The notes: generated by a model from the sequence alone, not told the origin. 60,672 bases of DNA, filler included, from Sluysia triapertura (GCA_046118255.1; 5 parts of 5 records of this genome joined end to end with filler, not necessarily neighbours in it); one strand, 5' to 3'; shown: positions 10,600 through 60,348, counted from the first letter of the whole stretch. Numbers and translations: made by a program.

Positions 10600-11387
10600 G
10601 TGGCAAGAAAGGTTATTAAAAAGAGACTTATGATAACATTATTTCAATATTTACGATTCAATTCAAGATATATCTTCAAAAAAATGAACAGATAACAGAA
10701 ACTAATCAATTAATTTTTAATATTGTAAGCTGTAATAATGCCTTGTAATAAAGCTTCAAGAGATACAGCAGTTTCGAGACGATTATCTAAAGTGAATATT
10801 ATAAGAAAAAGCTCTCTCCCGTTTCCGGAGAACGAAAATACTATCGAGAAAGGTCAATTTATGTAACGGAAATTTCAGGGTATCTGATGAAAACCGAGTA
10901 TTTTTGGATAAAAGAGGATTTAACTAACTTACTTGTAAACATTATGGATATTCTCTCATGAATATCTTTCTGTAAACTTGTAACATACTTTGACAGTTAT
11001 GCTAGACGCACTTTAGTAATGGATAACCTAAGTGATAAATGCTTTACGAGCTTGTAACATCATATTCAAATTTTTATTACCATATATACCTCAATTAAAC
11101 TTTATTGAGGAATTTTTTCACTGTTTAAAGCACGATATAATAGTTTTATCATTACAGAATGTTTGGAATCTTTACTTCTTCTCTCTAATGACTATTCTGT
11201 TGAATGTTTGGAGATTTAACAAAACGTGCATCGTTGGATTGACAATTCTAGTCGAAAAGAAGTATTTTAATAAATAATATTTTTAATTAAAAGTCCTTTC
11301 ATTTATAAATTTCATCGATTTTGGTGTAATATATCTTCATTGTATAATTTTTAGTTATATGTTAATATAGGATTGCGAAACTCTGTA
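10600..11387 (+). pseudogene. IS630-like (ITm superfamily) transposase remnant with putative right TIR
   Basis: IIRK..P..NENTIEK, FLDKRGFN*LTCKHYGYS (cf. FIDESGFN..R.YG.S), VMDN, FLLPYIPQLNFIEEFFHCLK (cf. FLPPYSPQLNPIE). Ends GCGAAACTCTG-TA. Confidence 0.7.
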
Positions 11388-11878: not shown

Positions 11879-11978
11879 NNNNNNNNNNNNNNNNNNNNNN
11901 NNNNNNNNNNNNNNNNNNNNNNTTAATTAATTAANNNNNNNNNNNNNNNNNNNNNNNNNNNNNNNNNNNNNNNNNNNN
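11879..11978. other. Assembly gap with artificial TTAATTAATTAA spacer
   Basis: N44-TTAATTAATTAA-N44, identical at four positions. Confidence 0.97.
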
Positions 11979-17056: not shown

Positions 17057-17122
17057 TGTTAGACTTCATGAAATGGATTAACTGGGGATCGAACACGGGA
17101 CCTCTCGCTGCTCAGTTCGATG
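17057..17122 (-). mobile_element. Truncated tRNA-LTR family copy (3' half)
   Basis: TGTTAGACTTCATGAAATGGA..GGGGATCGAAC matches the full copies at 29079, 38420 and 60194. Confidence 0.8.
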
Positions 17123-17699
17123 AATTGAAAACTTTTATTTTACAACAAAAACAAGTACGTACATAATCAAATAATATGATACAATAAATATATAAAGAGG
17201 GATCATATTTATATAAAAAGTAGTTAATGTAATAAGGCTGATACTGATTGTCCATTTAAGATATAGATATTCGTGGTGCTGCTGCTGCTGCCAGTTGTGC
17301 TGCTGGTGATAAGAAAAATGTTAATAATTGTTGTCGAACTATGGGGTCACAAGCATACCATTGATAAGTCAGAAAGAACAAAGAAAGATATTAAATCGTC
17401 ATCACACCAATGATAAATCACAGACATATAATTAAGTGGGTGAAATAAAAAAATGAGAATATAGGAAAATAAATAAAAGAAAAAATAAATAAAAATAAAA
17501 GAATAGAAAGAAATCAAAACCACTGAATGCAAAATGAAAAGAAGAAGGAAGTGAAAATGAAAATGTGAAAAAGAATATCAGTTGTTGTATAATAGATTGA
17601 TTATTCCCCAAAACCAAAAGATTAAAGATTAAAAGCACCCAAGAAAGAGGATAAACAAACTCATAAAAGTACCAAGATTAAGTCACATATGACAACAAT

Positions 17700-18630
17700 A
17701 TTATTTATGTGGGATATTGGAGGGAATTGTCCTTGTAGATTTTAAAGGAGGATTCAATGGAGAGTTTGATACACTGGCGTGCTAAACCAGTTATCGGCCC
17801 TACGGAAGCCTAGTTTTTTCAGAAGGATACCATTTTAAGGATCCCAAGAACCAAGTGCTCCAACGACAAACGTGTCAAGGGAAACCTGACATTTAAGTTG
17901 TATTTGGAGATTATCTCTCAGATCGGAATATTTCGTAATGTTGGAAGTTCGGGCCGCCTTAAATTTCTCATAATCATTAATCGGCGACTTGACGTCAATG
18001 AGAAAAAGTTGGGAAGAATTGGTACCTTGCGCTTGTATATCAAGTTTTCGATAGTCACCAGTGAGAGGAGTTTGTATATCCTTTTGACTGAGAAAGTTTA
18101 TGTTTAAGTTTACTATGAAACATTCGAGAATCTTATTGTCTGACTTTACGACTAATGATAGTTCGAGGACAAAGACATAGCACGTGGGTAATTGTTTCCC
18201 GTTCAGAGCCACACCGACACCTAATGGGAAGATGCAGTCGAATATTTTGTGGAGAGAAATTAAGCTTAAATTACTATTCCTAGCCTTAATCATAAAAATC
18301 CAACTCTGGTTGTTTAACTGTAAAGGACTTCTCATGAATCATTCGACAAAGCGACCTTGGGTTTTGAGGGATTTTCAAATGTTTGTATTGGAAATGTGAA
18401 TCAATGCATGAAGATATTTACTTACTTTCTCTTTATGAAACCGATTTAATATGACTTCGTTTATTTTATTTTGTCCTCACAGTAAAATAAGCTAGCAGAA
18501 ATTTGGTATTTTCGGTGTAAATTGAGGATAGATTGTCGAATTTTGGTCTGCCATGTCAGAAGTCGTGAACGCTTATCGGGCTTACCGCCATTCAGCCAAG
18601 ATAGAGTATCAGAATGTTCTCGACTTTATT
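17700..18630 (-). pseudogene. R2-superfamily (NeSL/R5-like) non-LTR retrotransposon 3' fragment: zinc knuckle and restriction-like endonuclease
   Basis: QGRF..WIFMIKARN, CRCGSERETITHVLCLC, KLDI..LIDVKSP..KAARTSNITKYSDL..FVVGALGSWDP*N. Confidence 0.85.
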
Positions 18631-18633
18631 TAA

Positions 18634-18714
18634 TCTACCCACTGAGCTATCAGCTCCGTCTAACAATTTTATTTTATTACAGTCAATATTACCATCATAG
18701 CACTTTAGGCCTAT
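18634..18714 (-). mobile_element. Truncated tRNA-LTR family copy (5' half)
   Basis: CACTGAGCTATCAGCTCCGTCTAACAATTTT...CACTTTAGGCCTAT matches the full LTRs. Confidence 0.8.
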
Positions 18715-23826: not shown

Positions 23827-23926
23827 NNNNNNNNNNNNNNNNNNNNNNNNNNNNNNNNNNNNNNNNNNNNTTAATTAATTAANNNNNNNNNNNNNNNNNN
23901 NNNNNNNNNNNNNNNNNNNNNNNNNN
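23827..23926. other. Assembly gap with artificial spacer
   Basis: N44-TTAATTAATTAA-N44. Confidence 0.97.
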
Positions 23927-24764
23927 AACTTGAATTTACAGGGTTTCCCGATCTATTAAGTCACTGTTGCAATCAATTAAGTCTACTTTAAATAGATGGA
24001 AACTACCTGATCCAAATATTTAAAATTTGATATTTAACTCACATCGCCAATAACATATAGTTATAATCTTTCTTATCGAAAACATGTATTAATATTAATA
24101 TTAACTTTAAATTATTTTATTGCTGAATGTTTGCAATGATGAATTATATTTTTTCAAAATTCTCTTGTTCATAAAATGCAGTTTCGTTTGTAGAGTTCAT
24201 TCTGACATTTTCTTCATTTGATACATTATTTCTGTTACTTCCATGTGCCTTTTTATTAAATGATCCATTTGTTTCTTGTGACCTGGTTTCTATTTCCTTT
24301 GTCCTTATAATTTTTAACCTTGAAATAAAAAGTAATTTTTTATACAACAGAAACAAAATCCAACAGTGAAGTAAAACTTTGTAAACAATATGCTAAGGTA
24401 AGTATAAATAATAAAATAGAAGAGTAGAGAGATAATAAGAATAATTCGATGCCGACGTTGACTGAAATAATGACAATATGATAACTATAAATTGAAAGGG
24501 TTTGTACAACTAATTTCTACTTATGTTAGTGGATAAACACTAGTTTAAATTATTTAAGATTTTATGATTAAGATTAAGGATAAATATTAGTAGGATTAGA
24601 TTTTAAGATTAAGGATAAGTATTAGTAGTAACGATGTGAGGATTGATGAAATATTTCATGATTATATGGATTCAAAATGGGGTTTCATGCGTGTATGTAG
24701 TATTTACTACATAATATAATCATAGTTGAAGGGCTGAACCACCACACAAGGATAGCTTTAATAT

Positions 24765-25017
24765 TTAGCAAAGTCAAATTTTAATTAATTTTCAATAATG
24801 GAATATTGAAATTTTTAAACTTAGAATGATGAAAAGATAATGAACTGTAAATGAGAAAATTGTTATGACATAATAGAATCTAAAAGTAAGTTTGAAAAGT
24901 CTGTAGAGTGGTTTGTTTGAGAACAAGAACCTTAAACACTTTTCGGCGTAAAAAACTGAAAATCAATTACATTCTAAAAACAAAAATTAAATTCATTTTT
25001 TTATGTATGTTAACAAT
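24765..25017 (+). repeat. Dispersed repeat family A, copy 1
   Basis: Colinear with 29305-29557 (e.g. TGTAGAGTGGTTT(G/A)TTTGAGAA) and inverted at about 33460-33700. Confidence 0.8.
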
Positions 25018-28429: not shown

Positions 28430-28800
28430 TATTGCTGGGATTGCCCAACTGTAGATCAGGAGATGAGTAAGAAACATATAGAACTATAAAATCAAGGAAG
28501 AATTGATACAAGTGATGGATTAAAACATTATAAACATTGTTGAAATAAGAATCAGGAAATAGAAAATATTTATAATGATCTTAACAGATAAAGAATATCT
28601 TAAGGTTCCAAAGACTTATATAAGGGTGAGACCTTATGAAAGCTTGAGATGGACTTGAAAAACCTTCAGAAGCATTAAGGTACCTTTGAACTTTAGAACC
28701 TTTAGATCGTTTAAGACCTTAATAACCTTTAAGTATCTTGGAACATCGAAGAGAATTTGAGATCCTTTAGTAATCTTATAAAGTGTTTAAAATCTTTAAA
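28430..28800 (+). repeat. Dispersed repeat, inverted copy at about 50480-50845
   Basis: TGGGATTGCCCAACTGT..GAAACATATAGAACTATAAAAT is shared between the copies. Confidence 0.8.
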
Positions 28801-29078
28801 ATAGTTGAGAAATAAAATCATTGTTATTGGTATTAAGAATAAATCTAGTACAGTAGAAAAAGGAATCGGAGAGGCGAAGATGAAAACATCTAGAGCCTCC
28901 TGAATACCTTATAAATTACTAAATAACTTTAGGATCTTAATAAAACCTTTAAACACAGAATGAGATTAAGTCTAAAAATAGATTAAATAATTAAATATCT
29001 TAATTAGGAAAAAGTACGTTTTTCTGAATAACTTTTGAATGTGGAATGCTATGTTGAATTTGAAACTGTGTATGCATT

Positions 29079-29236
29079 TGTTAGACTTCGTAAAATGGAC
29101 TGACCGGGAATCGAACCCAGGACCATCGTCTGCGCAGTCGATGCTCTACCACTGAGCTATCAGCCCCGCCTAACAATTTCATTTTTAATATATTTAATTA
29201 TACTACTTGGCACTTTTTAGGTCTTTTACCCCAACA
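29079..29236 (-). mobile_element. Solo LTR containing tRNA-Ala-derived sequence; 4-bp TSD CATT
   Basis: TGTT...AACA termini. CATT at 29075-29078 and 29237-29240. Confidence 0.9.
29096..29166 (-). pseudogene. tRNA-Ala(CGC)-derived sequence within LTR
   Basis: GGGCTGA-TA-GCTC-AGTGGTA-GAGC-A-TCGAC-TGCGCAG-ACGAT-GGTC-CTGGG-TTCGATT-CCCGG-TCAGTCC-A, then TTTT. A and B boxes, G3:U70 and CGC at 34-36 are present; the anticodon arm is non-canonical. Confidence 0.75.
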
Positions 29237-29249
29237 CATTTATTTTAAA

Positions 29250-29800
29250 AAGACTTTTCGATGAAGATATGGTTTGACCAAGTTCATGCAAGGAAAGCCT
29301 TATATTGAGCAAATTCAAAATTTAATTAATTCTTAATTATGGAATGTTGAATTTTTAAAACTTAGAGTGATGCAAATATGATAAATGGAATATGAGATGA
29401 TTGCTATGAAAGAGGAGAATCTAGAAGTGAGTTTGAAATGTTTGTAGAGTGGTTTATTTGAGAATAAGAAGCTTAACATTTTGGTGTGAAAAACCAAAAA
29501 TTAATTAAATTCTTTAAACGAAAATTAAATTCATTATTTTTTATGTACGTTAACAATAATGATGATTGTTTATTAATAAAAAAATTTAATTTAAGTAAAA
29601 GTGGATTGAGTAGAGTAAAGGAAAATAATACATAATCTTAAATAAATTTTCTGCTTTTTGTATCTAATAAATTCTCAAAGAATGTTGCAGTGGTTTGCTT
29701 GAGAGAATGTTTAATCCAAAAATTAGGAATGATTGGATGATGAGAGATATAAAAAGGAATACCAAAACTTTTACCTCAGAACAGTAACATCAATTAATAA
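29250..29800 (+). repeat. Dispersed repeat family A, copy 2 (coding-like)
   Basis: Shares TTTGACCAAGTTCATGCAAGGAAA with the reverse complement of 33705-33728. Translates as WFDQVHARK..DDCYERGESRSEFEMFVEWF. Confidence 0.75.
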
Positions 29801-30719
29801 TGCAAATGAGAAGATCCATGATTTAAGTAATTTTTGAATTTATTTTATAATTAAAAATAATATTGTTTTGGTGGATTTTAGTAAAATAGTTTTTGTTGTT
29901 GTGTTGTTCTTTGGAAATTTATATTTGATTATTATTAAAGAATAATCGTGAATAATAATTAATTTTTTTCTTAGTGTTGCGTAACCTCTGGTTTCTTTAG
30001 ATGGATTGTTTTATCCTTGATACTATTATAAACGTTATTGTTAATTTCGTCATTTTAGTCATTTTTAGTATTGTTTAGTGGAGATTTATAGTAATAATAA
30101 TTTGTATTTGATCTTTCTTTAACCAATAAATTATTGTGTTGTTGTTATTGATTTGATTTTCAAGAGCTTAATTTTGGGGTGAATAATTTTGAACATTATT
30201 ATAATCAAAACTCAATATACTTGATAAAACATAAATAATTAATATCATTATGTAACTCACCTAATAATTTTACTTCGTCTTCCTCAGTTCTTTGTGTATT
30301 AAACGAATGTATTTTAATATTCATTTCGATATTTCTGGCAATTGCCTTCTCAAATAATATCTGTTCTAATAGTGTCGTCACCATTCGAATTTCAATCAAA
30401 TACATGTTTACTCATTTGAAAATTCTTTTTCTTGCATGCAAGGCTGTTAAATTGTAGTACAAAATAAAACAAACTTCAATCATAAAAGTGATGCTAAATT
30501 GGAATTACAAAATGATGGTAAATTGTTACATAACAATTTGTTGGGATTAGTTAAGGATAAGGAGGAACATGATTAATATTTTATTATTAACATCTATTAT
30601 TTGTTAAAAATTTAATTTGTTTAATTAATTTTAATTAAAAAAATTTATTAATTATATTTCCTACATTCATGTACATTTTTTATTTTTAATCTTTAACAAT
30701 TTGAATCAAAGCAAAAGAC

Positions 30720-31372
30720 ATGAACCCGTTATAAGGTATATTTCTTAAAATAGTAAAATATTTGGTAAGTTAATTAAAAAATATTTGCTCATGACGCAGT
30801 AATATTAGAATTAGTGTATAATGACGAGTTTTATTAGTATTTTTAATGCTGAAGTGTTGCGATGCAGATCGACGTAGATAACTTAAAAATTAGTCATTTT
30901 AGTTAAGTTTTATAATCTAAATTTAGAGTTATAATCTAAAATTAGAGTTGTGATGTTTAAATATAAGTAAAGTATATACTAAGATACATATTCATTAAGC
31001 ATATATTCATTAAGATACAAATTCAACTCGACTTGCGACGTACGGTTGACGTATAACGTATTACAAAAACGATAAATTTGGTATTTCATTAATTCTATCC
31101 TAAATTAATAAATTTCGTTGATGATAGAATATTCATGCAATAACGATATTAAATTTTGATTTAGTTATGTTGAAAAGGTAAAGGGTTGTTTATCACAAAT
31201 CCAATTGTATCTGGGTAATTATAAAAGATAATGAAATTGGACATAAACGGAAATTACTGTTAAAATTTAATCATTAAAATTGGTCGGCTTCTGACCGACC
31301 AAAAAGAAAAGATAATTAATTAAGTAATTACTTCCAATATCCTAAATGATGGTCAAACTGCTACATAAATAG
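30720..31372. repeat. Dispersed repeat family C, direct copy at about 36995-37655
   Basis: Shared blocks GAACCCGTTATAAGGT, TTTGCTCATGA, TTATGTTGAAAAG, TTAAAATTGGTCGGCTT and a TATA-like end. Confidence 0.85.
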
Positions 31373-33069
31373 TCATATAGAATAGAATAGAATAATATAA
31401 AATATAACAGAAAAATATAAAATAGAATATAAAATAATAAGAATGTGAAATGGAACCTAGCATAATTAATTATCCAGAAGGAAATCAATGGATTAAATAG
31501 AATTATAAAAATACGAAATATAAGTAAAACAGAAATAGAAAACAAGCATCAGCTACACAAACTCACAGATAATACGCAAATTAATTACATGGCCACGTAA
31601 TCACAAAATACATAATCAACAAAACATAACTATTACACTCTTGGTTATTAGTGCACCTAAACCTTCCAGTATTATTTACGTAAGTCTCTTTCATTTACAT
31701 TCTCCGAATCAAAATTTCGGTTCCACGGATTTGACTTTCGAATATATAATATGATTTGATATTGTAAATATGGTAAAAGGAAAATCAAAATAAAATAAGT
31801 ACCACTTAAATATCTTCATTATCAATACAAAAATCAATACTCGCATTATTCATAAGAATCTACAAAATGTGCTTGTAACATACATAAAGCCATTAAACTT
31901 ACATTAGCTAAACTATATCTGTAAATAATGTAAATCTAAAAGAAATTTTTGTAAATAATGTAAATTTAAATGAAAAATGTAAAAAATAAATTGATTTACT
32001 GAAAATTTGTAATTAAAAATGTATCTAAAAAATAAATTATTATGAAAATTATCAATTAATTTAAGTTTAAAGTTTGAAATATTAAAAAAGGAAGTTAAAT
32101 TATTTGATTGACCTAAAAGTATAATATTTATTAAGAAAACTGAAATTTATAAATCATTTATTTACATTATTAATGGACTTATTTCGATTAAATGTTTGTT
32201 TCGTCAAAACTTAAACATTCACTAATTCGTTTATATTATTATGTCAATATTATTCATTAAAATAAGCAAATTATTTATTATTGGCAAAAAATGGTATAAA
32301 AAGTTTAACATTGTAACGACGTTAATAACAACTAAAGATTATTCTCGGTAAATGTTTGGAATTGTCAAGTGACCAGTACATATTCTTGTGGAATTGTCAA
32401 TATTTTATCGAAGTCGTACATATTTAATTGAAATTCTTCAATACTAAATTGATCGGTGAAAGTCCTTTAGTGGAATCATCAGTGATCTATATTACCAATT
32501 GATCGAAACCATTCATATTGAAGAATCATAATATCAAGAATTTTAATGAATAAGTTTGATATTTTTTGTTAAGATTTGGCATTAATATTTTGTCTTTGGC
32601 ATTCGCCTGAGTCAAAATCTTAATTAAAATACGAAGTTTATTTTTATCCAGAAGAAATTCTGAGTTTTTACACATGTATCTATACATCATTGTAATCTGT
32701 TGCACAATTTATAATTTTGTTTATTTGTGAAAGAATAGATAATTGTTTCGAAGTTTTTGCGTTGTAAATTTGGACATAGTAATAACCAATTTTGTAATTA
32801 AATTTTGATCGATTAATTTCTGAGTAATTATTAAGTTCTAAAACTCATTAAGTTAAAATGACAAAAGTGTCATATATATATTGACAAGTAACAAATTAAC
32901 TCGAATAAATTAGCGACTAAGAAGTTATTGAAAAATATCACGAGTACTGCATCCAAGTAGTAAGGAATTATTTACGTAGCATTTTTCACCAAAAATCATG
33001 TGAGTACATCTTTCACGTAATATAAACCGTGCATCACAGGCGAACACGTAAGTTTAATAATCTTATAAT

Positions 33070-33752
33070 TCTTTCAAACTCAGAAAAGTTGAACATATCA
33101 TTGGAATCGAATTAAAAGAGGTTTCTCAATTTATAAATTAATTTTACTTAAAATATAATAAAATAGTATTAAAATAAAAATTGAAATGTTGCTCAATGTT
33201 TGGAACAAGGATTGATGGGATACTTTCTCATTGTCCAATCACTCTTTAGTTTCGTAATAAAACAACTTACACAAATAATCCGAATTTCCTTTTACAGTCG
33301 AGCCAACAATTACAGCTCTGACTTGTCCGACTTAATTAAGTACACAACACAAAAGCTTAATAAATGACCAATCATTACTTTCCTCTACTCTATACGGCGT
33401 ATTTCCTTCTAGATTATTTCTCGAAATAAAAAGAAAAATCACTAATATTTCCGAAAATAAAAAAATAATGAATTTAACTTTAGTTTTTATTATTCATTTT
33501 TCAGTTATTTTTTCTCAGTTTTCTAATGGAAAATATTTAATGTACTTATCAAAGAAATAATTTTACAAACTTCTCAAATTTATTTCTTCTCTTTCATATC
33601 AATTATATGTATTCAATTTATTATCCTTTCAGCATTACTATTATGAAAAATTGATAATTAATTAATTGAGAATCAATTAAAATTTTACTTTGCTCTTTTA
33701 AGATTTTCCTTGCATGAACTTGGTCAAATCATAATCCTGTCGAAAAATCTCA
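33070..33752 (-). repeat. Dispersed repeat family A, copy 3 (possible SF3 helicase remnant)
   Basis: Inverted homology to 29250-29760. Fragments FIKLLCCVLN..AVIVGSTVKGNS, LFQTLSNISIFIL, KPLLI-SND. Confidence 0.55.
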
Positions 33753-35033
33753 GAAAACCAAAATCATGAATACTTACAGCTTAATCACATCATTTAGAAA
33801 TATTTCTAAAAATTATTTTTCCTTAGTTAAGTTAATTAAGATTTTTATTCGTCGTTGATTTGATAATTGTTAAATTTAGTCAGATCATCGTGAACTATAA
33901 AATAATCAATACAGAATTTATCGACGCTATTAAAATAGTCAAAATGAAACTTAAAGTGCTTATAAAATGAACATAGCGAATTATAATTATAAAACAAATT
34001 ATAAAACAAATTATAATTACAATTTAGAAATATTTCGAAAATGAAATTAGAAAATTATATTATTGAGTGCCAAAAAAATACAAGAAATGTTTTTTGATTT
34101 TATTAAAACCGATATTAATTATTTTTATTTTAGAAGTCTCTAACACTCTATCAGATAAATATTTCGCATAATCATTACACAATGATTTTTAAAGAGTTGT
34201 TTCAGATTCATTTGGAAATAGCCAATATTAAACAAATTAAACAAATCATGTAAATCTGTGGTAGATCAATTCAAAATATTGTGTTTTTTTAAAGACTACA
34301 TTAAACAATTAAATCATAAATCATAACAAAATAACAAAATCTTCAATCTTAATCATTTCATTTTACAACATGATTATACACTCAACTTTTAACTGTGTTC
34401 TTAGATATTATATTATTTGCTGTAAACATCACTAAATTACTTAATACACATCGTTACTCGTGAAAACTTTTTGGTTTTAAACATGCCAATTAAAAGATCA
34501 AATTTAAACACACCGTGTTTCACATAACCTTATATTCAATTTCAGTATTACTTTCAATAGAAAATTCCACAAAAAATACATATAATCAATCTCAGTTTAT
34601 ATTAATCTTAATTCAAACATTAACATAAGAAAATTTCATATTTTGCAAAAAATGTCTTTACGTAACATTGAAAAATAACATTTCACAACATCTACAATCT
34701 TCATCAATAGCGATTTTCACGAACAACCGACAATACATTATTTAGAATCATCATCATATTCACCAACAGGGTACATACTTATTCTACCTTTTATTCGATA
34801 CTAAGTTATGTGGTCTGAAATAAATGAAGTAGGTATTCGTGTTTGTTCTTAATATAAATTTCTTTTCAATAAATATTGACAAATTTCGCTAAATCATAAT
34901 CTATTTAGCGAAATAAAATTATTCCTCAATCTAGTCAATATTAAATGTTAAATGGCGCAATTAGAAATTTCTGAAATTTAGAAAATTATTGGTACCGAAC
35001 TTCAAACACTAATTACCTTGCAGAAAAATCTGA

Positions 35034-35034
<1 letters not shown>

Positions 35035-35108
<74 letters not shown>
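35035..35108. repeat. (AAC)n(AAT)n microsatellite
   Basis: Direct inspection; abuts the gap. Confidence 0.95.
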
Positions 35109-35208
35109 NNNNNNNNNNNNNNNNNNNNNNNNNNNNNNNNNNNNNNNNNNNNTTAATTAATTAANNNNNNNNNNNNNNNNNNNNNNNNNNNNNNNNNNNN
35201 NNNNNNNN
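35109..35208. other. Assembly gap with artificial spacer
   Basis: N44-TTAATTAATTAA-N44. Confidence 0.97.
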
Positions 35209-36390
35209 TAACCGAACCGCAAACTTAAATAAAAATTAGATATGAAAAACAACAAATGCAATTTTTTATTTTGTCATTTTATGTTATCTTCGCTACTATT
35301 CATTCCCTTCTGCAAATAGTAGTTTTTGTTGCGTGATCTTATTGATTTTGTTCTGCCGTCATTGCTTGATTTTTATTCATTGTGTGCTTCTGGACCCTCA
35401 TTATTAAAAATTCAGCGAAAGACTTTAGATTTAAACGAACATATCTTTGTTATTAAGAATTACTATTCAAGAACTAGCTACAAGAATGGTGAATAAAGAT
35501 GGCAAGCAAACTTCAGAACACCTATATCGAGCAGGTCGACAATGTTCAATCTTGAAGTAACTGGAAGTGTGTCAGATGTTCCTTAAGAAGGTCGTCCGAA
35601 AACAGTTCGTTCACCTAAAAACAGGAATACAGTGGCATTTGTTCATTCTCCTAGAAAATCTACCCGCCAGGTATCGAAAGAGCTCAACATTTCTCGAACC
35701 TCACTCCACCATATCTTGCATGACTTTGGTCTAAAACCACAGATATCTCATCTTCTTCATGCCCTAAATGAGGATGACCCGGATAAACGATTAGAATTTT
35801 GTTAGAATTTTATATAATTTTGTGAAGAATCACCAGATTTTCCAGTTTGGATCGTATGGAATATTTATTGGGACAGTGAGAATCCCCATCGTATTATTGA
35901 AAAGAAAGTCACAGTCTGGGGTTGAATCGGCAGCACTGGCCTAGTTGGTCCATTCTTCTTTGAAGGAAGTGTTAATTGTGAACGTTATCTTGATATGCTG
36001 AAGACTAAAGTGTTTCTATTGTTAATGAGTTCTCCCTAAGATGTTCGACAATGGCTTATTGAAAAATTTCTTGAACGTTGGATTGGACGCCAAGGATTCT
36101 AAGAGATCCCCGGATCCGACATCGCATCATTTTTTCTACGGGGATTTCTAAAGGAAGCAGATTATACTAAAAAGCCCAGGACAATTAATCAACTAAAACA
36201 AAGTATTCAGCACGAATGGAACAAAATTTCAGAGAAAAATTGCCAGAAAGTACGTGTCAGTGTTGACAAAAGATGTCTCGCTTGTATTGAAGTTCAAGAT
36301 GGACATTCTCAAAATTTGTAAATACTAAATATACCTATTAAATTTGTATTTTTGATACCTAATTTTTATTTTTTTGCGGTTCATTTACAT
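35209..36390 (+). mobile_element. Tc1/mariner DD41D (rosa/VS)-type element with pseudogenised transposase (about 35430-36321)
   Basis: TGSVSDVP*EGRPKTVRS, SPRKSTRQVSKELNISRTS, LNEDDPDKRLEF, WDSENPH, KVTVWG, GPFFFEGSVNCERYLDML, RWIGR, FFLRGFLKE, RCLACIEVQDGHSQNL*. About 45-bp inverted repeats (GAACCGCAAA..AATAAAAATTAG) at both ends, followed by (TA)n. Confidence 0.9.
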
Positions 36391-36994
36391 ATATATATAT
36401 ATATATATATTCTTATTAAACTTAAGAAGGCTTGTCATAAAACTAAGAAATTATTCAAGATTTGTTTGAATGAATTTTGAACTGCGTTCTTAAAATGATA
36501 TGGTCCTAACAATATTTTGATTTTATGTTTTTTAAAACCTTAGATCTCTTAACTGGGAATAGAATTTCATGCCAAGCAGCCCGTATATCATCATTAGTAT
36601 TTATCATTACCAGAATAAGAACTATTTTTTGTTTCTAAAAATTTCAATTTATCTCTTAATACTTTCAAACTTATAACTTCGCATGTCTTACTTGACTTCT
36701 GTGGTAAGGAAATCCATAAATTTTAATTTATCCTAAATTCAGATATCGTGACATTCAAGCAGTGCATACTTTTAGGTTTAATTTTATTATTGGGTAATAA
36801 CATTCATGTAACCTGTTCAAGGTGTGTGTTGAGTTTGGTTAAAGATGAAAAGAAACACAAGAGTTATAACTCGTGGTGTGAAAATAAAGTAGGTAATATT
36901 GAGAGATTAAGATAATGCATTGAGATGAATTGTGATAACAAAAGAAATGTTTAAAATATTTAAATCAAAACAAAATAATGAAAGATACGAAGAA

Positions 36995-37655
36995 AGAACC
37001 CGTTATAAGGTCTTACTTGTTAAAATATTAAAGTACATTTGTTAATTAATTTAATTAAAATTTGTCTAATTTGATAATATAGTGAAAAATGTTTGCTCAT
37101 GATAAAATAACATTAGAATTAATGTATAGTGCTGAATTTTATTAGTATTCATAATGTTGAAGTGTTACGAAATATGTCTACACAGATAACGTAAAAAATT
37201 GGTTTTTGTAATTAATTAGTTTTTATAATCTAAAACTAAATTTATGTATGTTATAATGTTTAAGTATCTATCAAATTGATGCTTATCTAACATGTTATTG
37301 AAATTGACGCATAACCTATTCTATAAAAGATTTCTGTGGGAAAGTAATTTAGTTTTTGATTAGTTTTAACTTTATTTTAAGTTGATAAGTTGTGTTAATA
37401 ATAGAATATTAATGTAATAACGATGTTAAATTTTAATTTAATTATGTTGAAAAGATATGGGATTATTTACCACAAATCCTATTATCTTTGGACAATTGTA
37501 GGAGACAATGTTATTAAAAACCGACGGAAATTACTATTGAAATTTAATTATTAAAATTGGTCGGCTTATGACTGAGTGAAAAGAATGAATAATTTTATAA
37601 GTAATTATTTCCCATTTTTAATACCCTAAGCGATTACCAAACCGCTATATAAACA
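36995..37655. repeat. Dispersed repeat family C, copy 2
   Basis: Colinear with 30720-31372. Confidence 0.85.
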
Positions 37656-38419
37656 AGAGCATTTTTGTCATAAAATCAGAATAAGAATATTTGAACTAGA
37701 GAGAAAATTTGTTATCCAAAACTTTTTCTCAATTATGGACACTGCTTCAACGCATTTGTTATAAACACTGTGACAGACACTGCGACTTATCTTCTTCAAT
37801 TGATTAAACTTCAGAAACAGTAGTTTTATTGTTAAGTTACTTACGTTATTCTTATTTTATTAGTTTTATCGCATTGGATTTTATAGATTTAGTAATTTAT
37901 AGTTGTTGAATTTATATAGAATTTAATGTAGTAAAAAACAGCTGAATTTTTAAAGAACTGTTGAATTTATATATTAGAGTATATTGTTATAATTGACAAT
38001 TTAATGTAATAATTGCGAATATATTGAGATTTCGTATTAATTTAATTATTGAGTTATTTTCTGAATAAAGACACAACATGTGTCAACCAAACTATTGAAA
38101 TCAATATCAAAAATGCCATGAATGATTTAGTATTCATGTTGTTGTTAGACGAAAAACGTATTAGCGTAGAACGTCGAAAAGTTCGACAACCACGTGCAAA
38201 TAATGTACATTCGATTTTGAGTGTTCGTCACAATTCAAGTAATGCCCACCTATTCGAGATATTTTTATTATTGCACTATCTTCATTTATATATAATGTTT
38301 TTGTTTTGTACTTTGTTGTGGATAAACCTAAATTCAGGCTATCTAAATTCTAAAACTAAATTACAAATTAATTTTAAAGAATCAAATGATCAAATGAAAT
38401 TTAGTTTTGCTACTATGAT

Positions 38420-38576
38420 TGTTAGACTTCGTAAAATGGACTGATCGGGGATCGAACCCGGGACCTTCGCTGCGCAGTTCGAATGCTCTACCACTGAGTT
38501 ATCCGCCCCGTCTAACGATTCTATTTTATTATAGTCAATTTTACCAAATGGCACTTTAGGCCTTTTTAACCCAACA
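38420..38576 (-). mobile_element. Solo LTR containing tRNA-Ala-derived sequence (38437-38508); 4-bp TSD TGAT
   Basis: TGTT...AACA termini. TGAT at 38416-38419 and 38577-38580. B box GGTTCGATCCC. Confidence 0.9.
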
Positions 38577-41479
38577 TGATATTCAATCGTATGACTTTGA
38601 AATATAAAATCTTTGGTATTCAGATTGAAATAAATCTCAGCCGGTTGATAGTACATAAAAATGTAATGAGTACAATTTTAGAAGTACAACTCTAATAAAG
38701 TTTAGGCCATCAATACCTTACTCGGTGTTAAATACCATATATGAAGTAAAAAGAGCAAGCATTCCTAAATGTCTTCATTTTAGTAAGACTATTTTATTAA
38801 TGTAACTAAAATAATAATAATAAACTAATAATTTCAACAATGTTCTTAATCACTGACCCTGACAACTGTATACTCACGCCATCGAAAGCCTTTTTCTCAT
38901 AAACGCATATGTCTAGAGTTAATGTCAATAATACAATCTCCACTATGTCTTATTTTCAATCCATAATTTAAATACCGAACCATCTATAAAGTCATCTCAT
39001 AACATTGTTAAACCATTAACATTACAAAATTTTGCTAAGTCCACCATTAAATTTATCATTTTTAATTTTGATTCACTAAAATCTAGTTTTACTACATTAG
39101 TTAAATTTTCCATTATGAACTTAATATTTTCATCGTCTTGCAAATTTATGGACATGCGATTAGCTTCTTTCCTTCCAAATTTATTAACATCTGTTAAGGA
39201 TACTGATATGTCAATTCTCGAAGACAAATGATTAATTAGTTTTTTTCGTCTTATGACATCAGTAGTCAATATTTATTGATTTATTGACTAACTTTATGAC
39301 ATTTATTTATCTGAATTAATTATATTAACTTTATATATTTATTGATTACTTTGGAAATATTTTATTTGAATGTAAGAATTTTTATTTTAAATTTTATTCA
39401 TAATTTTATTAAAATTTTATATTATTCATAATTTTATTAAAATTTTCTTAATTTTTATTATTACGAACTAAAGTGGCTATTCTAATTTTGATTATTTGAA
39501 TATTTTAATTTAATATTTTATTTTAATCTGACCAAGGTCAGACTAAAACCAGTATATAAACATCAACTTTTTGCAATTATAAACACACTTAGCAACTCAA
39601 CAATACACAATTGACATACCAAAATTTTCGCAAGGTGTTTATAAATTATTGATAATTTGACGATATTAGATCCGCAATTTATTACAATCCTTCCAGACGT
39701 TATTAAATAAAGAATTTAAGATTTTGTTACGAATTAACTGAGAATATTTTTTTTATTTGGATAAAAGTTTTACTAGTAACTTTAGTTTGATTTTGTTAAG
39801 ATTGATATTTTTATCAAACGTAAAATAGACTTAATATCATTTATAACATTGGGATCATATAATGATCCATAGTAAAATATATTTTTTAAATTTTAATTAT
39901 TGATTTAACTAACTGAAACAGTTAGTTCGTGTAAATTTATTATTATTTATTATTGATCCCAATTTTGTATAGTTTAGACATAAAGTTTCCTTTTTGTCTG
40001 TGCTTAATTTACTAACTTACATAGTCTAAAAATCTGTTAAAATCTAACACTGCGATTCTTTTCGAAAAGCTAGAATTTAATTCTAGACACGCAAAATCTT
40101 TTTCAACGATTCCATATAATGGAATCCACGTAAAATTAATAAATAAGTTCACATTTTTATTTAAATATTTAGCTTCAAGATTTGCTAAGCAGTTTTCAAT
40201 TTAATTTGCCAAGAGCCTCAATTTATAAATCACTAAGGAATATTAAAACGATAAAAGACATAGAATTTACCTCCAAGTGGAATTGAATACTAAGGACTTT
40301 GTTATCATATTTTTCAAGACTTATTTTACAAGAAATCAAACGGCTGGCCCTAACTGGTAAGTCCAGTAGGTTGGTGAACTCACATATTTATCTCATTTTA
40401 TTCTATTTAACACAAAACTTTCACAGTAATATATTTCCAACTTTAAGTTGATATGACAAATTTTTTAGCGATTATTGTGCTATGGTTTTCTTAAATCTAA
40501 ACCAACAATAAAATAAAAAATTGAGTAGGGTCCGGTTACAGTAAACGACTTACTGCTTTATAGTTGGCGTTCCTGCAACTTAAAGTTCATAATCTTAATA
40601 TATTTATCCGAAAAATGTGTCTAATACGTTTCTAACTAAATGTAATATAATGTTCATTAATTTTTTTTAAAATTCTTAATAAAATGTTCATTTATTTAAT
40701 GTCTCAAATATTTATTCATTTTTAATTTAAAATTAATTGTTATTTTCAAAATAAAATTAAAATAATTATCACTGAGATTATAAAGCTCTTATATTAATTT
40801 AAAATGAGATTACGTAGAATTAATTTAAAATTTAAAATCAATTTTAAATTGAAATTGTATAAATAATCATTTTAAAATGAGATTCTACAAAGACAATATG
40901 AAATTAAAATTTATAAACATCAAACTTTATTATTATAGTCAAATTATTTTAAATTAAGAATTAATAACGTGAAATCAAAATTTGAGAACATAAAATCCGA
41001 TTAAAATTATCTTAAAAACATGATTTAGTAAAGTATAATATGCAAGTTAAAATTACATTAAATTGAGATCGAATAGAACTAGTATGTAATTAAAAATTAG
41101 TAACATTTTTTTGATCAAAATTAACTTAAATTAAAGATTTGATTGAATAGATAAAAGTTATCAGTAATCAAAATTTAAAAGCATTATTATTATCTTAAAT
41201 TAAAACCAAATGAAAATAGTATAAAATTAAAATTTGAATGTCATTAGCATATAAATCGGAAAGACTTACATACGTAGATTAGAAACAATATTGATTTAAT
41301 TAAAATTATATATTTAACCACTATTTACAGTTACATCAACTTACTGTTTATATTAAAATAATTACTGCATTAATGGAATTATATTAACAATTATAAACTA
41401 TTGGAATTATTATACGTAATATTAGAATTCTATTGGAATTATACTATAAAACACCATAAAAACCCACAAAAATTACTGA

Positions 41480-46559: not shown

Positions 46560-46890
46560 ATTTAAATTGACCTATGATACTTGTTGACTCTCTGGCGTAT
46601 GATTTTAAAGCAAGCCTTGAGTACTACTCATACTTTGTTCCATAAGTCAGAACATGCATCTTATCAGAAAATGAACTTACTGAGACTCCAACCAAGGCCT
46701 TCTCTCTATGCAGTTCTGTACTCCAACCAGTGTAACAGTCTATTAATACAAGTCAATTATATAATCTTTTACACATGCATTTTACGGATCTTTTTCAGGA
46801 TCATTATGATAAATTTCGGAATTTTTATCCTTCGCGATCACAAATTAATTGATTTTCTTCACATTCAACAAGATTTTCTTAAATAGAGAA
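46560..46890 (-). pseudogene. Ty3/gypsy RT-connection/RNase H remnant
   Basis: KDYIIDLY..DCYTGWSTELH (cf. TDASxxG+GAxL) and EKALVGVSVSSF..LTYGTKY (cf. ExLA++..F..YLxGxxF). Confidence 0.45.
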
Positions 46891-46903
46891 TTATAGGGAT
46901 TCC

Positions 46904-46975
46904 TACTGAGCTATCAGTCCTGCCTAACAATGTATTTTTTATTATATTTAAATGATCAAATGACACTTTGTCCTA
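46904..46975 (-). mobile_element. Truncated tRNA-LTR family copy (5' half)
   Basis: ACTGAGCTATCAGTCCTGCCTAACAA...CACTTTGTCCTA. Confidence 0.75.
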
Positions 46976-47719: not shown

Positions 47720-47819
47720 NNNNNNNNNNNNNNNNNNNNNNNNNNNNNNNNNNNNNNNNNNNNTTAATTAATTAANNNNNNNNNNNNNNNNNNNNNNNNN
47801 NNNNNNNNNNNNNNNNNNN
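47720..47819. other. Assembly gap with artificial spacer
   Basis: N44-TTAATTAATTAA-N44. Confidence 0.97.
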
Positions 47820-49542: not shown

Positions 49543-52000
49543 CTCACGAAATCAGTTTTTTATCGAAGGTCCAAGTGAGGTAATAATTTCTTTTAAGTTG
49601 TGCTTTGATACTGATGGCCATAAAATAATACTTAAACTCTATCACAATACACCGAAGAATAATTCCTGGGTTAAATATTCTCTAAATAATTTTATACATA
49701 TTCAGAAGAGAAATCTTCAAGGAATTGTAACGTGCATATATATTATTATTATTAAATGTTTTGTACTATTTTTAAAGTAATTTTTATAATCGAATTTTGT
49801 TTAATACATATATAGTTGTTCAAGTTGAGTTTTATTTTAAAGGAGAAACAAAATTTTGGTAAGTTAAAGGAAATATAAATCAGAGCATTTTGAAACCTTT
49901 AAAGCGCACTTAGAGTTGCCCAAAATAACTGTTTGATAAATCGTATATTGTTTAAGTCTATACGTAAATTATTAACGAATAGAACGTTTCATTAAACGAT
50001 AATCATTATCGCAGACGCATATTTTTTGACGAGTAAGGATAAGATAAAACATTTGTATTTCTAAAGATATTAGTTATTCTGTAGCTACGTCTACTGCACG
50101 TTTTAAATCGTAGACTACAGATGAACCCGTTTAAAATTTTATAATTGTTATAAAATATTTTTTTAAAAAAAAATTATAACAATTGTTAGGGATTAAATTG
50201 TAAAATTTTGTGAGATAAACGTTGGAATACAATACGAAAAAGAATTTAAAATAATAAAGGAGTTTATATAGAACTTTTAACCGTTAAGGAAGTGACCCTC
50301 TTTGATAATTCTTTCTTTAAAAAAGGAAAATAAAAATCCTACGAACACGTCCTTTTAAGGCAAATGGCATTACGTAGGCGGACCCATTTCTGTTTTAAAC
50401 TTTCATAATTGTTTCAAGCTAGAGAAAGCGAACATTACTAAACTTATTCTTAATACCAATAACAATGATTTTGTTTCCCAACTATTTTAAAGATTTTAAA
50501 CACTTTATAAAATTACTCGAAGATCTTAGATGCTTATCAAGGTTTTAGGAACACTTAAAGGTTAACAAGGTCTCAGATGATCTCATTATTCCCAAGCCCA
50601 AAGGCACTCCAATACCTTTAAGTCCATTTCAAGCTTCACAAGGTCCAACATCCCATATAGGTATTGGAAACTCTAAGGTATTATTCAGCTGTTAACAATA
50701 CCATAAATGCTTCAATTTTTACGACTCTCATTTCAAAGCTGCTTACAACGCTCATTCCATCACTTGAAATAAGTTCTCTCTTCATTTTATAGTTCTATAT
50801 GTTTCTCAGGTATTTTCTGATACACAGTTGGGCAATCCCAACAGTATTACGTATTAAATTAATAAATTTAAAGATATAAGTTCATACAAAATTGACATAA
50901 AATGATTTACGAAGTTTTGATTACATGGTATATATCACTGTCACAGTTACTAGCATGCCTCTTGCACGTTTCAAGCCGCACACTGAACCGAACTCGTAAA
51001 TTTTATTTTGCTGCAAGTTATATTTTGAGGGAATTAACAAACAAGTGTTTCATCTCATTTCTTGGATAAAACAATTAATTTAATTCGTAAAATATTCGAA
51101 TATTCCCATAATTTAAAAATAAAAACAAATTGGTGTTCTTTTAGTAACATTCATCAAAATTTCAAATTTTATAATTTTTCATCATTACATTTAAAGCCTT
51201 GTTATTTTGATTTACAACAGAAAGAGGAAATACTTATGCTGCAACACTCCATTGAAAAGAGATGGGTTTTTAATCAACTTTTATTATTTTATTGATATTT
51301 ATCGACTTTTTGAGTTTTATTTTATGAAACAGTAACATTGCAACAAAACGAAATATTACTATTTTATACGATTTTTTACACGCAGTGTAAAATAAGCGTA
51401 ACTTGAACATTCTGTTACACTTAATCACAACAATTTTGACTAATTTAAATTTTCGAACTGTTTTATAAAGGCGTCAAATTAATGCTAGTTCACATTATGT
51501 ATTATATAAATCTATTGTGCTAAAATTTTACTTTACGATAGAATATTTTAAAATATAAAATTTAGAAAAGTTGTAAAAAACATCAAATTATGTATTTAAT
51601 ATATTAAATTATACTGTATGGATCTTCTTCTTCTCTAAGATAAATGAATATTAAATAAATAAATTTACAATGTTAGTCTTGCTTTTTTAATTTTGTTTTC
51701 TTTTTTGGTTTTAAAATATCTTCTACAACCCTTTATTAATGTTCTCAATATAAGTGTCAGCAATATGCATATCAGAATAAGAACTAATCCTTGCATAATT
51801 AATGATAAATAAAATAAAACTGGATATTGTTTTTGTATATGTGCTAATTTTTCTATTATATCCTAAAATAATTTTATAAGTAATTTAAAATTTACCATTA
51901 TTAATAATTGAGTTAACTTAATTGTTTAATTGCAATATATACGATAATTAATTTCCTTAAATATTTAATTTCTTAAGTATATTAATGAAGAAATAATCTT

Positions 52001-52643: not shown

Positions 52644-52712
52644 GTAATATTTATTGGTATTAATAAAGGATATATGTTATGACTGACATATTTAAATTGT
52701 AATTGTTTTCAG

Positions 52713-53124
52713 GGTGATTCTCATTGGAGTAATCATATAGCGGAGGCAACAGTATTAGCTCAATTACCCGATCGTTTTTTGCATTTAACGGTTTATGGTT
52801 GTTCCGACAATGGTAAATTTTGTCTCGTATCTCCTCGAATCAATCATGGTCGCATATGTTATCGTGAAGGGTCGAAATTAAACCCTCATGATGTAATTTT
52901 GGAAGTTCACGGTTACAAAGTATCTGGTTATACTCAAAGTGATTTAGAAGATCTCATACAAACTCTTAGTGCCAATTGTGAGCCAATTATAATAAAGACG
53001 GTACCTGGTAATTTATTGAATCCTACTTTGAAAGAATATCTCAGCCTCAGTTTTAGAACTGAATCTATTGATCATGATTTACAAAGAGTTATTAGAGATA
53101 ATGTTTATCTAAGAGTTGTGCCTT
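52713..53124 (+). CDS. MAGI: MAGI (membrane-associated guanylate kinase inverted) exon: PDZ0 and start of GK
   Basis: HWSNHIAEATV..VYGCSDNGKF..ILEVHGYKVSG..LKEYLSLSF..DHDLQRVIRDNVYLRVVPC matches the MAGI N-terminus. GTAAGC donor at 53125. Confidence 0.95.
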
Positions 53125-53143
53125 GTAAGCTTGTTTTTATTAA

Positions 53144-53311
<168 letters not shown>

Positions 53312-54319
53312 TAATATATCATACATAATATTATATTTTTTTGTGCCTAAATCTAAAAAAACAAAAAAAAATTCGCATCTAAAAAGATAAATAATTACGC
53401 AATGATTAATTATTTATTCTAAGTTTCTATTTTATCAATATGAGTAAACTATTTATAAAAGTAATACGAATTAATAATAAAATACTTTTTAGAAAATTTT
53501 CCCGTTAAATTTCTCTTTATTTTACTCATGTTTTCTTTAATAAACTTTTATAATTTAAAAAATATTTGGATGCTTAAATAAAATTTTATATTTAATTGTA
53601 ATTTTTTTGTTAAAATTAAAATTAGAAATTAATATCAAGATTCGAAATATTTAATGAGTTATGAATAAAATGATATATAGAATAATCTAGGCGTTTAATA
53701 ACATAACCACTAATCAATAATAGTCAAATTATTCTAGATTCTACAGTGTGCTAAATTTTATATTTTGTTCTTTTTAATTAGAAATTTCATTGTAATATTT
53801 GTATAATGATTATTATATTTTAATTTTGAACATGCATAATCATTATAGAATTAAAACATTGGTTGAAATAACTATAATCCAAAGTTTATTTGAATCAAAG
53901 TTGCAAACACGTTACTCATGAATCATACAAAGCTTTACAGTACTTTTAATTTGTCTGATTTCACCGATAATAGCATAATAATTATTATACAGAGAATATG
54001 TGGAGGAAACTGTTAATTTACTGTATTGTGTAAGAAACTTTCAGACTTAGGCATCAATATAGAAATTAAATAGAGAATTCGATTTTAAGAATATATATTT
54101 TTGTATATAACGAACTATACTCGTGACCATACAAAGGATTTTCTCAATTAAATTTTAAATTCTGAATTTGAGTTAAGTTTGAAGTTGATTTAAAGAATAT
54201 AATTTAAATTTCGATTTTTTAAATCAATTTAGTTTTATGTTAATAAATTTTATTTTTTGTCAAAAAAATGAAACTTATTCTTTATTGTGAGTATTTCAAA
54301 ATAATATAATTATATTAAC

Positions 54320-57690: not shown

Positions 57691-58879
57691 CTTATATATT
57701 TAAGTTATCAACAAACTTTGCGTTTTCTACAAATTTCATTATTGATAATTATTAATTAAATTACTACTGATTTGAATTGTCAATGACTTAAAATTATATT
57801 TGCTTATATTTTTTTCAATACGATTAAGCTAAGTTATTAACCGTATAAGATAAATTGTGTTGAAAAGCAACTTAAGCTATAAATCGACAACCACACGAAA
57901 TATAAAAAAAGAGACAAATAATATTAAATATAATAAGATTTATATGACATCGATATAAAACAAGCACACCTTAACCTTAGCATTATCAAATCTTCACTTG
58001 TTAAATCGATGTTATATACACTCATTAAGGTTAATTTATAATTCACAGTTATCAAATTCATTATATAATCCACGCATATTAAGTTATCCTGCATTAAAAT
58101 TGTACATTTGATTATAATAAAAAATTGTTAAATTGTATTGATAAAGTCAGCGGTCGTCAGATTAAGTAGCGAATAATCCTGCATTAGATCCCGGATTTCG
58201 ATCACTTTCTGAAGTCTGACAAGCTGTTCAACTTACTAATTGTAATATTGTAATGATTTTAAATTTTAAATTATAAAATATTATCCTTTTTATTTTGGTG
58301 ATTTACGTGAAAAAATAAAAGAAACCATTGCATAAATTTACAAATCATTAAATTTAATTAGACACGCGTTATTAAAATTAAATGAAAACAAAACTCTGCT
58401 TCTTACATTTTTTGTGATTTTCAGTAATCCTAAAATTTAAAAAATATAATTCTAAAGGTTACATCTAATTTTAATGAATATAGAGATTTAAAAAAAGTTC
58501 AAATACTAAATTAAATTAAATACTAAGATGAATTAAACGGTCGAAGCTAACTTTTAAAGCAATCCGTTGATTATTTTAAATGATGCATATATTTCTTGGT
58601 TGTTTATTCTTGAACATTTTCGAAGTATGTTGTTTTTGTTTTAGTAATAAAGCAGAAGCAAATAAAAACAGATACAATAATTGGTAAAATATTTAGTTAG
58701 TTTCAAAAGAATATCTTTGTAGTGAGTAATAATACAATTATAGCTAATGTTAATTTTTTAATAAACTTAAAATTTTATAAAATTTTGTAAAATTAGTTAG
58801 TATTTATTTTACTTCTTATTATAAGTAATACATTTTTTTAAATATATTTGGGATGTTTATATATACTGTAATGTTCATT

Positions 58880-59752: not shown

Positions 59753-59986
59753 GTGAGTAGGCTAAGTAGATGGTTTACCAATTTTTTAGAATGCAATTAT
59801 GCAATGCTATTTTCTAGTGGAGGAGCAGCTATTTATGGGATTTAATATTGGAAGAATACATCTCTGGTGTTGATAGAGTAATTCAACTATACTGTTTCCG
59901 TTACAATTTTGTGTATCTCATAAACATGTATGTACATACTAAATATTGAAAAATTAATAATTGTAACAGTATAATTGTAGTTTATG

Positions 59987-60348
59987 TGTTAGACTTCGTA
60001 AAATGGACTTACCCGGAATCGAACCAGGGACCTCTGGCTGCGCTACCCAATCTAACAATTTCATTTTTATTATATTCAATTATACTACATGCCACTTTAG
60101 GCCTGTATCCCAACATATCTCACCCAATTCAATTATGTTTGTCCTCAAACATCATATAAATAATTTAATTCAACATCAGAAGGAGATTCGATATGTTAGA
60201 CTTCGTAAAATGGACTGACTGAGGATCTAACCCGGGCCTCTAGTTGCGCAGTTCGATGCTCTACCACTGAGCTATCAGCTCCATCTAACAAATTCATTTT
60301 TATTATATTCAATTATACTATATTGCACTTTAGGCCTATATCCCAACA
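59987..60348 (-). mobile_element. Complete two-LTR miniature retrotransposon (TRIM) with tRNA-derived LTRs (Helenus-like); 4-bp TSD TATG
   Basis: LTRs at 59987-60115 (internally deleted) and 60194-60348, with a 78-bp non-coding spacer. TATG at 59983-59986 and 60349-60352. Minus-strand TTTGAGGACAAA...GGGTGAGATA precedes the 3' LTR. Confidence 0.9.

What the first reader, a model, noticed from the sequence alone, without database searches (positions are those of the whole stretch)
29075..38580. Two solo tRNA-LTRs with independent exact 4-bp TSDs (29079-29236 and 38420-38576)
Seen: CATT|TGTT...AACA|CATT and TGAT|TGTT...AACA|TGAT. With the TATG-flanked element, all three complete insertions have different but fixed-length 4-bp duplications at TG/CA ends. 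Known: this is the signature of DDE integrase insertion, followed by LTR-LTR recombination to leave solo LTRs, and not of LINE-type target-primed reverse transcription.
Basis: partly seen in the sequence, partly recalled or inferred. Interest (0 to 1): 0.7.

Follow-up and report, generated by a model that had tools for sequence, protein, structure and literature searches.

The report
Solo ends of tRNA-bearing mini-retrotransposon
The two 157-base repeats are real insertions, each with an exact 4-base duplication and a broken tRNA copy inside, and are most likely leftover ends of a tiny gene-less retrotransposon of a kind (Helenus) described in 2024, here very abundant in an animal that is probably a flatworm.

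Summary
Confirmed. 29079-29236 (CATT) and 38420-38576 (TGAT) have TGTT...AACA ends and exact 4-bp duplications, as does the two-repeat element at 59987-60348 (TATG): 3 of 3 testable insertions, chance about 1e-6. For the first, empty sites were found: other copies of the host repeat lack 162 bp, that is the LTR plus one target copy. The second was not tested this way. Each repeat holds a tRNA-Cys-like core on the minus strand, with Pol III boxes and a T-run. Layout, sizes and 4-bp TSD match animal Helenus (TRIMp3; Kojima 2024), whose solo LTRs are already described. One defining feature fails in the only full copy: it has no canonical primer site. Solo formation by recombination and a Gypsy helper are inferred. 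Genome-wide TSD counts and the solo:full ratio could not be measured because no genome is held. This scan has noted the same kind of element three times on other pieces of this genome. Side finding: a third LTR is split by a NeSL-like LINE fragment within 1 nt of the site that planarian LIN15_SM uses in tRNA-Arg. Verdict: new member of a known kind; modest interest.

The parts
29075..29078 (.). left TSD CATT of solo LTR S1 (right copy 29237-29240)
29079..29236 (-). solo LTR S1, 158 bp, TGTT...AACA; strand given as the tRNA sense
   Evidence: empty sites
29096..29166 (-). tRNA-like core of S1: box A, box B, enlarged anticodon loop, followed by TTTT
   Evidence: Rfam tRNA 53.4 bits; ARAGORN anticodon unresolved; motifs
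38416..38419 (.). left TSD TGAT of solo LTR S2 (right copy 38577-38580)
38420..38576 (-). solo LTR S2, 157 bp; tRNA-like core 38437-38508, box A with one change, box B intact
   Evidence: (34.3 bits)
59987..60348 (-). complete two-LTR element, 362 bp, TSD TATG at 59983-59986 and 60349-60352
60194..60348 (-). 5' LTR (tRNA sense), 155 bp; tRNA-like core 60211-60281
60116..60193 (-). 78-bp internal part: no TGG-type primer site; purine-rich GGGTGAGA two bases before the 3' LTR; high-copy in the run
59987..60115 (-). 3' LTR, 129 bp, with a deletion of about 26 bp that removes box A; 88% identical to its partner
17057..18714 (-). LTR split in its tRNA D-arm (17057-17122 and 18634-18714) by a 1.5-kb insertion carrying the 3' end of a restriction-like-endonuclease LINE
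46664..46975 (-). decayed family copy, probably two LTR remnants
   Evidence: score 121 against a shuffle maximum of 85.5; the internal part alone is not significant
58098..58221 (+). decayed LTR in the opposite orientation
   Evidence: score 72.5 against a shuffle maximum of 46
33430..33920 (-). paralogue of the host repeat around S1 that lacks the LTR (empty site); the outer limit is approximate

Best explanation
The two repeats are single tRNA-bearing terminal repeats with exact 4-bp target duplications, likely left behind when a gene-less two-LTR mini-retrotransposon of the Helenus kind (like the one at 59987-60348) lost its middle by LTR-LTR recombination. Shown: the TSDs, the fixed ends, the tRNA-like core with Pol III boxes, a two-LTR parent whose internal part is repeated in the genome, and empty paralogous sites for S1. 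Inferred: RNA polymerase III transcribes the element from the tRNA-Cys-derived boxes; a helper Gypsy element supplies reverse transcriptase and integrase; the integrase joins the TG..CA ends with a 4-base stagger; recombination between the two LTRs then leaves one LTR between the original TSDs. The copies are old (85-89% alike) and appear inert.
For: Exact 4-bp TSDs at 3 of 3 testable insertions, each with a different sequence. Joints in run X1 skip 162-163 bp at S1 in 4 table rows holding 11 contigs. An in-window paralogue aligns with one 162-bp gap at 29081-29242. The two-LTR element has high depth over its internal part (69,000-525,000 against 15.6 on unique flank). Its layout (AT-rich part, tRNA-like core, T-run, CA end) resembles fungal Helenus LTRs. 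Sizes 157/78/362 lie within the published ranges; 4-bp TSDs mark animal Helenus, and solo LTRs with TSDs are reported. Inverted repeat at the ends is only 4-6 bp.
Against: The only full copy has no TGG-type primer site, which all animal Helenus in Fig. S2 show. No helper element lies in the window and none could be searched for. The two LTRs of the full copy differ about as much (K2P 0.128) as unrelated copies do (0.135), so age or a hybrid origin cannot be told apart. A TTTT run follows the tRNA core in 4 of 4 LTRs and could stop Pol III before the internal part; known Helenus LTRs show similar T-runs. Three of the four empty-site rows are marked 'between: not known', only 15 of 251 joints were shown, and all come from one run that is probably the source of the assembly. 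S2 has no empty-site test.
Confidence: 0.85

Rival explanations
1. The 157-bp unit is a non-autonomous cut-and-paste transposon moved as DNA by a Ginger-type (integrase-like) transposase; the two-repeat element would be a composite of two such units.
For: Ginger elements have TGTNR ends and 4-bp TSDs (PMC2836005). The full copy lacks a canonical primer site. An earlier unchecked note reports one related copy with long inverted ends (e1-9844839).
Against: Ginger TIRs are 40-270 bp; here only 4-6 bp are inverted. None of the 3 targets is CCGG/CCGT or RTATAY. The pair shares one outer TSD, neither LTR has its own exact TSD, and the spacer is itself high-copy.
Confidence: 0.07
2. The single LTRs never had a full parent at these sites: an LTR integrase inserted one-LTR DNA directly.
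For: A single LTR has both integrase ends, so direct insertion would give the same TSD and the same empty site (inference).
Against: No evidence here favours it. Recombination is the published route for Helenus solos, and full copies are abundant.
Confidence: 0.06
3. The repeats are tRNA-derived SINEs inserted by LINE machinery, or tRNA pseudogenes.
For: tRNA-like core with boxes A and B; short length; very high depth.
Against: The tRNA is internal, about 70 bp from the 5' end. Both ends are fixed to the base in 4 of 4 LTRs, there is no A-rich tail, the TSD is 4 bp each time, and a head-to-tail pair shares one TSD.
Confidence: 0.02

Closest known systems
Helenus (TRIMp3), animal families; Kojima 2024, PMC10886601
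   Same: tRNA-like sequence with boxes A and B inside the LTR; two LTRs around a short non-coding middle; total under 1 kb; 4-bp TSD; purine tract before the 3' LTR; solo LTRs with TSDs.
   Different: No TGG-type primer site in the one full copy here. Host probably outside the six listed animal phyla ('Platyhelminthes' 0 hits in main text and supplement). Abundance seems higher than the published maximum of 5,575 LTRs, though measured differently. No close sequence match turned up in six motif searches of the supplement; most consensus sequences were not read or aligned.
Cassandra and Ajax TRIMs (as described in PMC10886601)
   Same: Small-RNA-derived Pol III promoter inside the LTR of a non-autonomous LTR element.
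   Different: They carry 5S rRNA sequence; Ajax makes 5-bp TSDs.
Ginger1 and Ginger2 DNA transposons (PMC2836005)
   Same: TGTNR ends and 4-bp TSDs made by a Gypsy-like integrase.
   Different: 40-270-bp TIRs, specific targets, transposase gene; no direct LTR pair and no tRNA core.
LIN15_SM, NeSL-related LINE of Schmidtea mediterranea (PMC4640811, S6 Fig), for the insertion at 17123-18633
   Same: Restriction-like-endonuclease LINE inserted in tRNA sense at the 3' strand of the D-stem; the 3' junction here lies 1 nt downstream of the LIN15_SM site, compared by eye.
   Different: Target here is a tRNA-Cys-like LTR core and not tRNA-Arg; one case only; no sequence comparison with LIN15_SM protein was possible.

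Membership tests
Helenus (TRIMp3) | tRNA-derived sequence inside the LTR | tested here: met
   Rfam tRNA hits of 53.4, 34.3 and 28.2 bits in 3 of 4 intact-ended LTRs; the fourth has a deletion
Helenus (TRIMp3) | box A (TRGCY..YGG) and box B (GGTTC) kept | tested here: met
   box A exact in 2 of 4 LTRs (changed in S2, deleted in 59987-60115); box B exact in 3 of 4; both exact only in S1
Helenus (TRIMp3) | two LTRs around a short non-coding middle, about 0.3-1.3 kb in all | tested here: met
   129 + 78 + 155 = 362 bp at 59987-60348; the middle is high-copy in run X1
Helenus (TRIMp3) | fixed TSD, 4 bp in animals | tested here: met
   3 of 3 testable insertions; empty sites for S1
Helenus (TRIMp3) | polypurine tract before the 3' LTR | tested here: inconclusive
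   GGGTGAGA (7 of 8 purines) ends two bases before the LTR in tRNA sense, but the other orientation also has 8 purines in its last 12 bases; one copy only
Helenus (TRIMp3) | primer-binding site after the 5' LTR | tested here: inconclusive
Absent in canonical form from the one full copy; self-priming not supported (61-122 of 500 shuffles as good); a split 5+9-base complement to planarian tRNA-Trp sits there.
Helenus (TRIMp3) | tRNA-like part not a working tRNA | tested here: met
   anticodon unresolved, enlarged loop, non-standard stem pairs in two copies; computational only
Helenus (TRIMp3) | Pol III transcription and mobilisation by a Gypsy helper | not testable with these tools
   no genome held, no RNA run found among holders (DNA search)
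Ginger DNA transposons | TIRs of 40-270 bp | tested here: not met
   4-6 bp only
Ginger DNA transposons | CCGG/CCGT or RTATAY targets | tested here: not met
   0 of 3
tRNA-derived SINE | tRNA head at the 5' end, A-rich or repeat tail, variable TSD | tested here: not met
   tRNA internal, fixed TG..CA ends, 4-bp TSD in 3 of 3

The most novel reading that the evidence does not exclude
A flatworm Helenus-type element has reached tens of thousands of copies, includes a subfamily that spread without a canonical tRNA 3'-end primer site (primed otherwise, for example by a tRNA-Trp fragment cut in the T-loop), and its tRNA-like LTRs act as decoy landing sites for a tRNA-targeting LINE.
Probability: 0.1. 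Interest if true: 0.6.

Novelty: new member of a known kind. Interest (0 to 1): 0.3.

Why it matters
It gives a direct insertion test (filled against empty site) for a kind of element so far described in one paper found by my searches, and probably adds a host phylum. Very abundant tRNA look-alikes would inflate tRNA gene counts and could be mislabelled as SINEs in such genomes. If the primer-less form is a real mobile subfamily, it would show another way to prime an LTR element.

Tried and rejected
No whole genome is held, so the TSD census and solo:full count were not possible. Depth ratios give solo:full anywhere from 0.7 to 26 and the tool says depth is no copy number, so I set no value. 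Scans of metagenome (2), viral (1) and prokaryote genome (1) contigs for LTR motifs found 0 matches. Host naming by protein search failed: three homologue searches gave nothing, the Atlas gave no answer, and the representatives search was still queued when I stopped. The second host-repeat paralogue (24.4-25.0 kb) does not align on the left flank (138 of 1000 shuffles as good) and was dropped as an empty site. Self-priming of the internal part on the LTR was not better than shuffles. A tRNA-Trp primer motif occurs in the window only at chance level. Pfam and PDB did not name the LINE fragment; its label rests on motif order compared with PMC4838377 passages, and the Utopia supplement held no matching alignment. 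The ciliate code gave no long genes. The sigma-70 scan is irrelevant to this host. The decayed locus at 46.7-47.0 kb does not show a significant internal part.

Full report
Observation. The letters and coordinates are right. S1 is 29079-29236 (158 bp) between CATT and CATT; S2 is 38420-38576 (157 bp) between TGAT and TGAT. The third element is 59987-60348 between TATG and TATG. Of flank lengths 2 to 8, only 4 matches in all three. In this window a 4-mer recurs at such a distance with frequency 0.011, giving 1.2e-4 for two and 1.3e-6 for three. A profile search found 8 LTR copies at 6 loci; the three loci not counted above have lost an end.

Anatomy. The four LTRs with intact ends are 85-89% alike over aligned columns. 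Read on the minus strand each runs TGTTGGG, about 60 AT-rich bases, a tRNA-like core, TTTT, and ends CTAACA. Rfam scores three cores as tRNA (53.4, 34.3, 28.2 bits) and ARAGORN cannot assign an anticodon. A 16-base stretch of the core hit only one row of the Schmidtea tRNA table, a tRNA-Cys-GCA (PMC7962491); by eye 21 bases are shared, so the core is likely Cys-derived. Box A is exact in 2 of 4 LTRs and box B in 3 of 4. Only 4-6 terminal bases are inverted. The full element is LTR 155 + internal 78 + LTR 129 bp.

Empty-site test. No genome is held. One public run, X1, holds the DNA, as contigs, and is probably the source of the assembly. S1 lies inside another very abundant repeat, so other copies of that repeat act as empty sites. 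Of 15 joints shown (251 in all), 7 cross S1, and 4 rows holding 11 contigs skip 162-163 bp. One 163 row carries one extra letter, so its net length is 162; the other three rows are marked 'between: not known'. 162 is the LTR plus one target copy. The three remaining rows skip 169, 188 and 210 bp with other letters between. In the window, the paralogue at about 33.4-33.9 kb aligns across the site with one 162-bp gap at 29081-29242; the best excision length is 161-162, and its left-flank similarity is reached by 1 of 1000 shuffles and 11 of 1915 random stretches. A second paralogue at 24.4-25.0 kb was uninformative. These are paralogous sites, not alleles. S2 was not tested.

Abundance. Summed contig depth is 0.8-1.9 million over S1 and 69,000-525,000 over the internal part, against 15.6 on unique flank. 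The tool warns that this is no copy number. It does show that the internal part belongs to the family and suggests tens of thousands of LTRs. The solo:full ratio falls anywhere from 0.7 to 26 and is unresolved.

Known kind. Kojima 2024 (PMC10886601; I read main text parts 1-5 of 6, supplement parts 1, 10 and 11 of 11, and search passages) defines Helenus as short non-autonomous LTR elements with a tRNA-like sequence in the LTR, a primer site and a purine tract; animal families make 4-bp TSDs and are thought to use Gypsy helpers; solo LTRs with TSDs are reported. The element here fits in layout, size and TSD. I recalled this family before searching. Parts 2-9 of the supplement, which hold most consensus sequences, were seen only as passages, so a closer named relative could have been missed.

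The feature that does not fit. The one full copy has no TGG-type primer site in either orientation, whereas all animal Helenus in Fig. S2 have one. Self-priming was not better than shuffles. Its first 20 bases hold two blocks, 5 and 9 bases, complementary to the T-loop and anticodon stem of planarian tRNA-Trp. The gapped pattern occurs once in the window against 0.01 expected, but I chose it after seeing the data. An earlier unchecked note gives a 410-bp copy with a Trp-class primer site (e1-9808870); 410 minus two 157-bp LTRs is 96, which is 18 more than here. One contig from another locus seems to share the short junction, with only 11 letters on the LTR side, below the tool's 31-letter rule (record 3). 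Membership is therefore likely but not complete; 'works like Helenus' is the stronger claim.

Mechanism. Shown: staggered 4-base insertion at fixed TG..CA ends; a two-LTR parent form; a Pol III-type promoter sequence. Inferred from established LTR biology and the Helenus paper: Pol III transcription, reverse transcription and integration by a Gypsy helper, and loss of the middle by LTR-LTR recombination. Ginger transposons share the ends and TSD length but need 40-270-bp TIRs and prefer other targets (PMC2836005, passages); neither holds here. A SINE reading fails on the internal tRNA, fixed ends and fixed TSD.

Host. GC is about 0.24 and a MAGI-like gene is present, which points to an animal. 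Earlier notes call it a planarian flatworm; my own searches could not confirm this. Flatworms are not listed in the Helenus paper. Searches for Helenus, TRIMp3 and planarian tRNA-bearing TRIMs listed no report of one in a planarian (listings only), and passages of a 2026 Dugesia genome preprint had no 'TRIM' or 'Helenus' (its supplements were not seen). Repbase was not searchable and may already hold it.

Side finding. The LTR at 17057-18714 is split by 1.5 kb whose broken frames show CCHC, D..D-K, KY and LG.W motifs in the order given for R2-type endonucleases (PMC4838377 passages). Databases did not name it. Its 3' junction lies at the 3' strand of the D-stem, 1 nt from where LIN15_SM enters tRNA-Arg genes, in the same sense (PMC4640811 passages and S6 Fig part 1 of 3; PMC5035012 passages). 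It is one case, compared by eye.

Verdict. Real, well supported, and of a known kind. The scan has noted the same kind of element on three other pieces of this genome; those notes are not independent support. What this window adds is the empty-site proof for S1, a full copy without a canonical primer site, and a possible tRNA-targeting LINE landing in an LTR. Novelty: new member of a known kind. Interest 0.3.

Noticed in passing
window 17123-18633 (minus): A 5'-truncated, frameshifted LINE end with a CCHC knuckle, a D..D-K nuclease core, KY and LG.W motifs splits an LTR in its tRNA D-arm, 1 nt from the LIN15_SM site in tRNA-Arg; no TSD, about 2 target bases lost.
   Followed up: partly
window 60116-60193: The internal part begins TATC and ends GATA, so with the LTR ends both junctions form an 8-bp inverted repeat; its first 20 bases hold a split complement to tRNA-Trp.
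   Followed up: partly
window about 28430-29570, with relatives at 24747-25017, 33430-33920 (minus), 50436-50846 (minus): S1 sits inside an unnamed AT-rich repeat with depth of 1e5-1e6 against 15.6 for unique DNA; Pfam gave no convincing hit on six frames of its left part.
   Followed up: partly
window 52683-53314 (plus): Host gene pieces like MAGI (PDZ plus guanylate kinase); best PDB match MAGI2, E 1.7e-22.
   Followed up: partly
window 30777-31369 and 37085-37653: A 600-bp direct repeat pair, 69% alike, between the two solo LTRs; unrelated to them.
   Followed up: no
window 60544-60672: Another high-copy repeat begins here (depth up to 94,000).
   Followed up: no
window 11879-11978, 23827-23926, 35109-35208, 47720-47819, and near 20.1 kb: Assembly gaps padded with N and a TTAATTAATTAA spacer; the two solos lie on opposite sides of the gap at 35.1 kb, so their spacing is not assured.
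   Followed up: no
window 11032-11277 and 2121-2456: A weak DDE_3 match (E 0.09) at 11.0-11.3 kb, and an ORF at 2.1-2.5 kb that by recall resembles a Polinton-type polymerase fragment; no Pfam hit for the latter.
   Followed up: no
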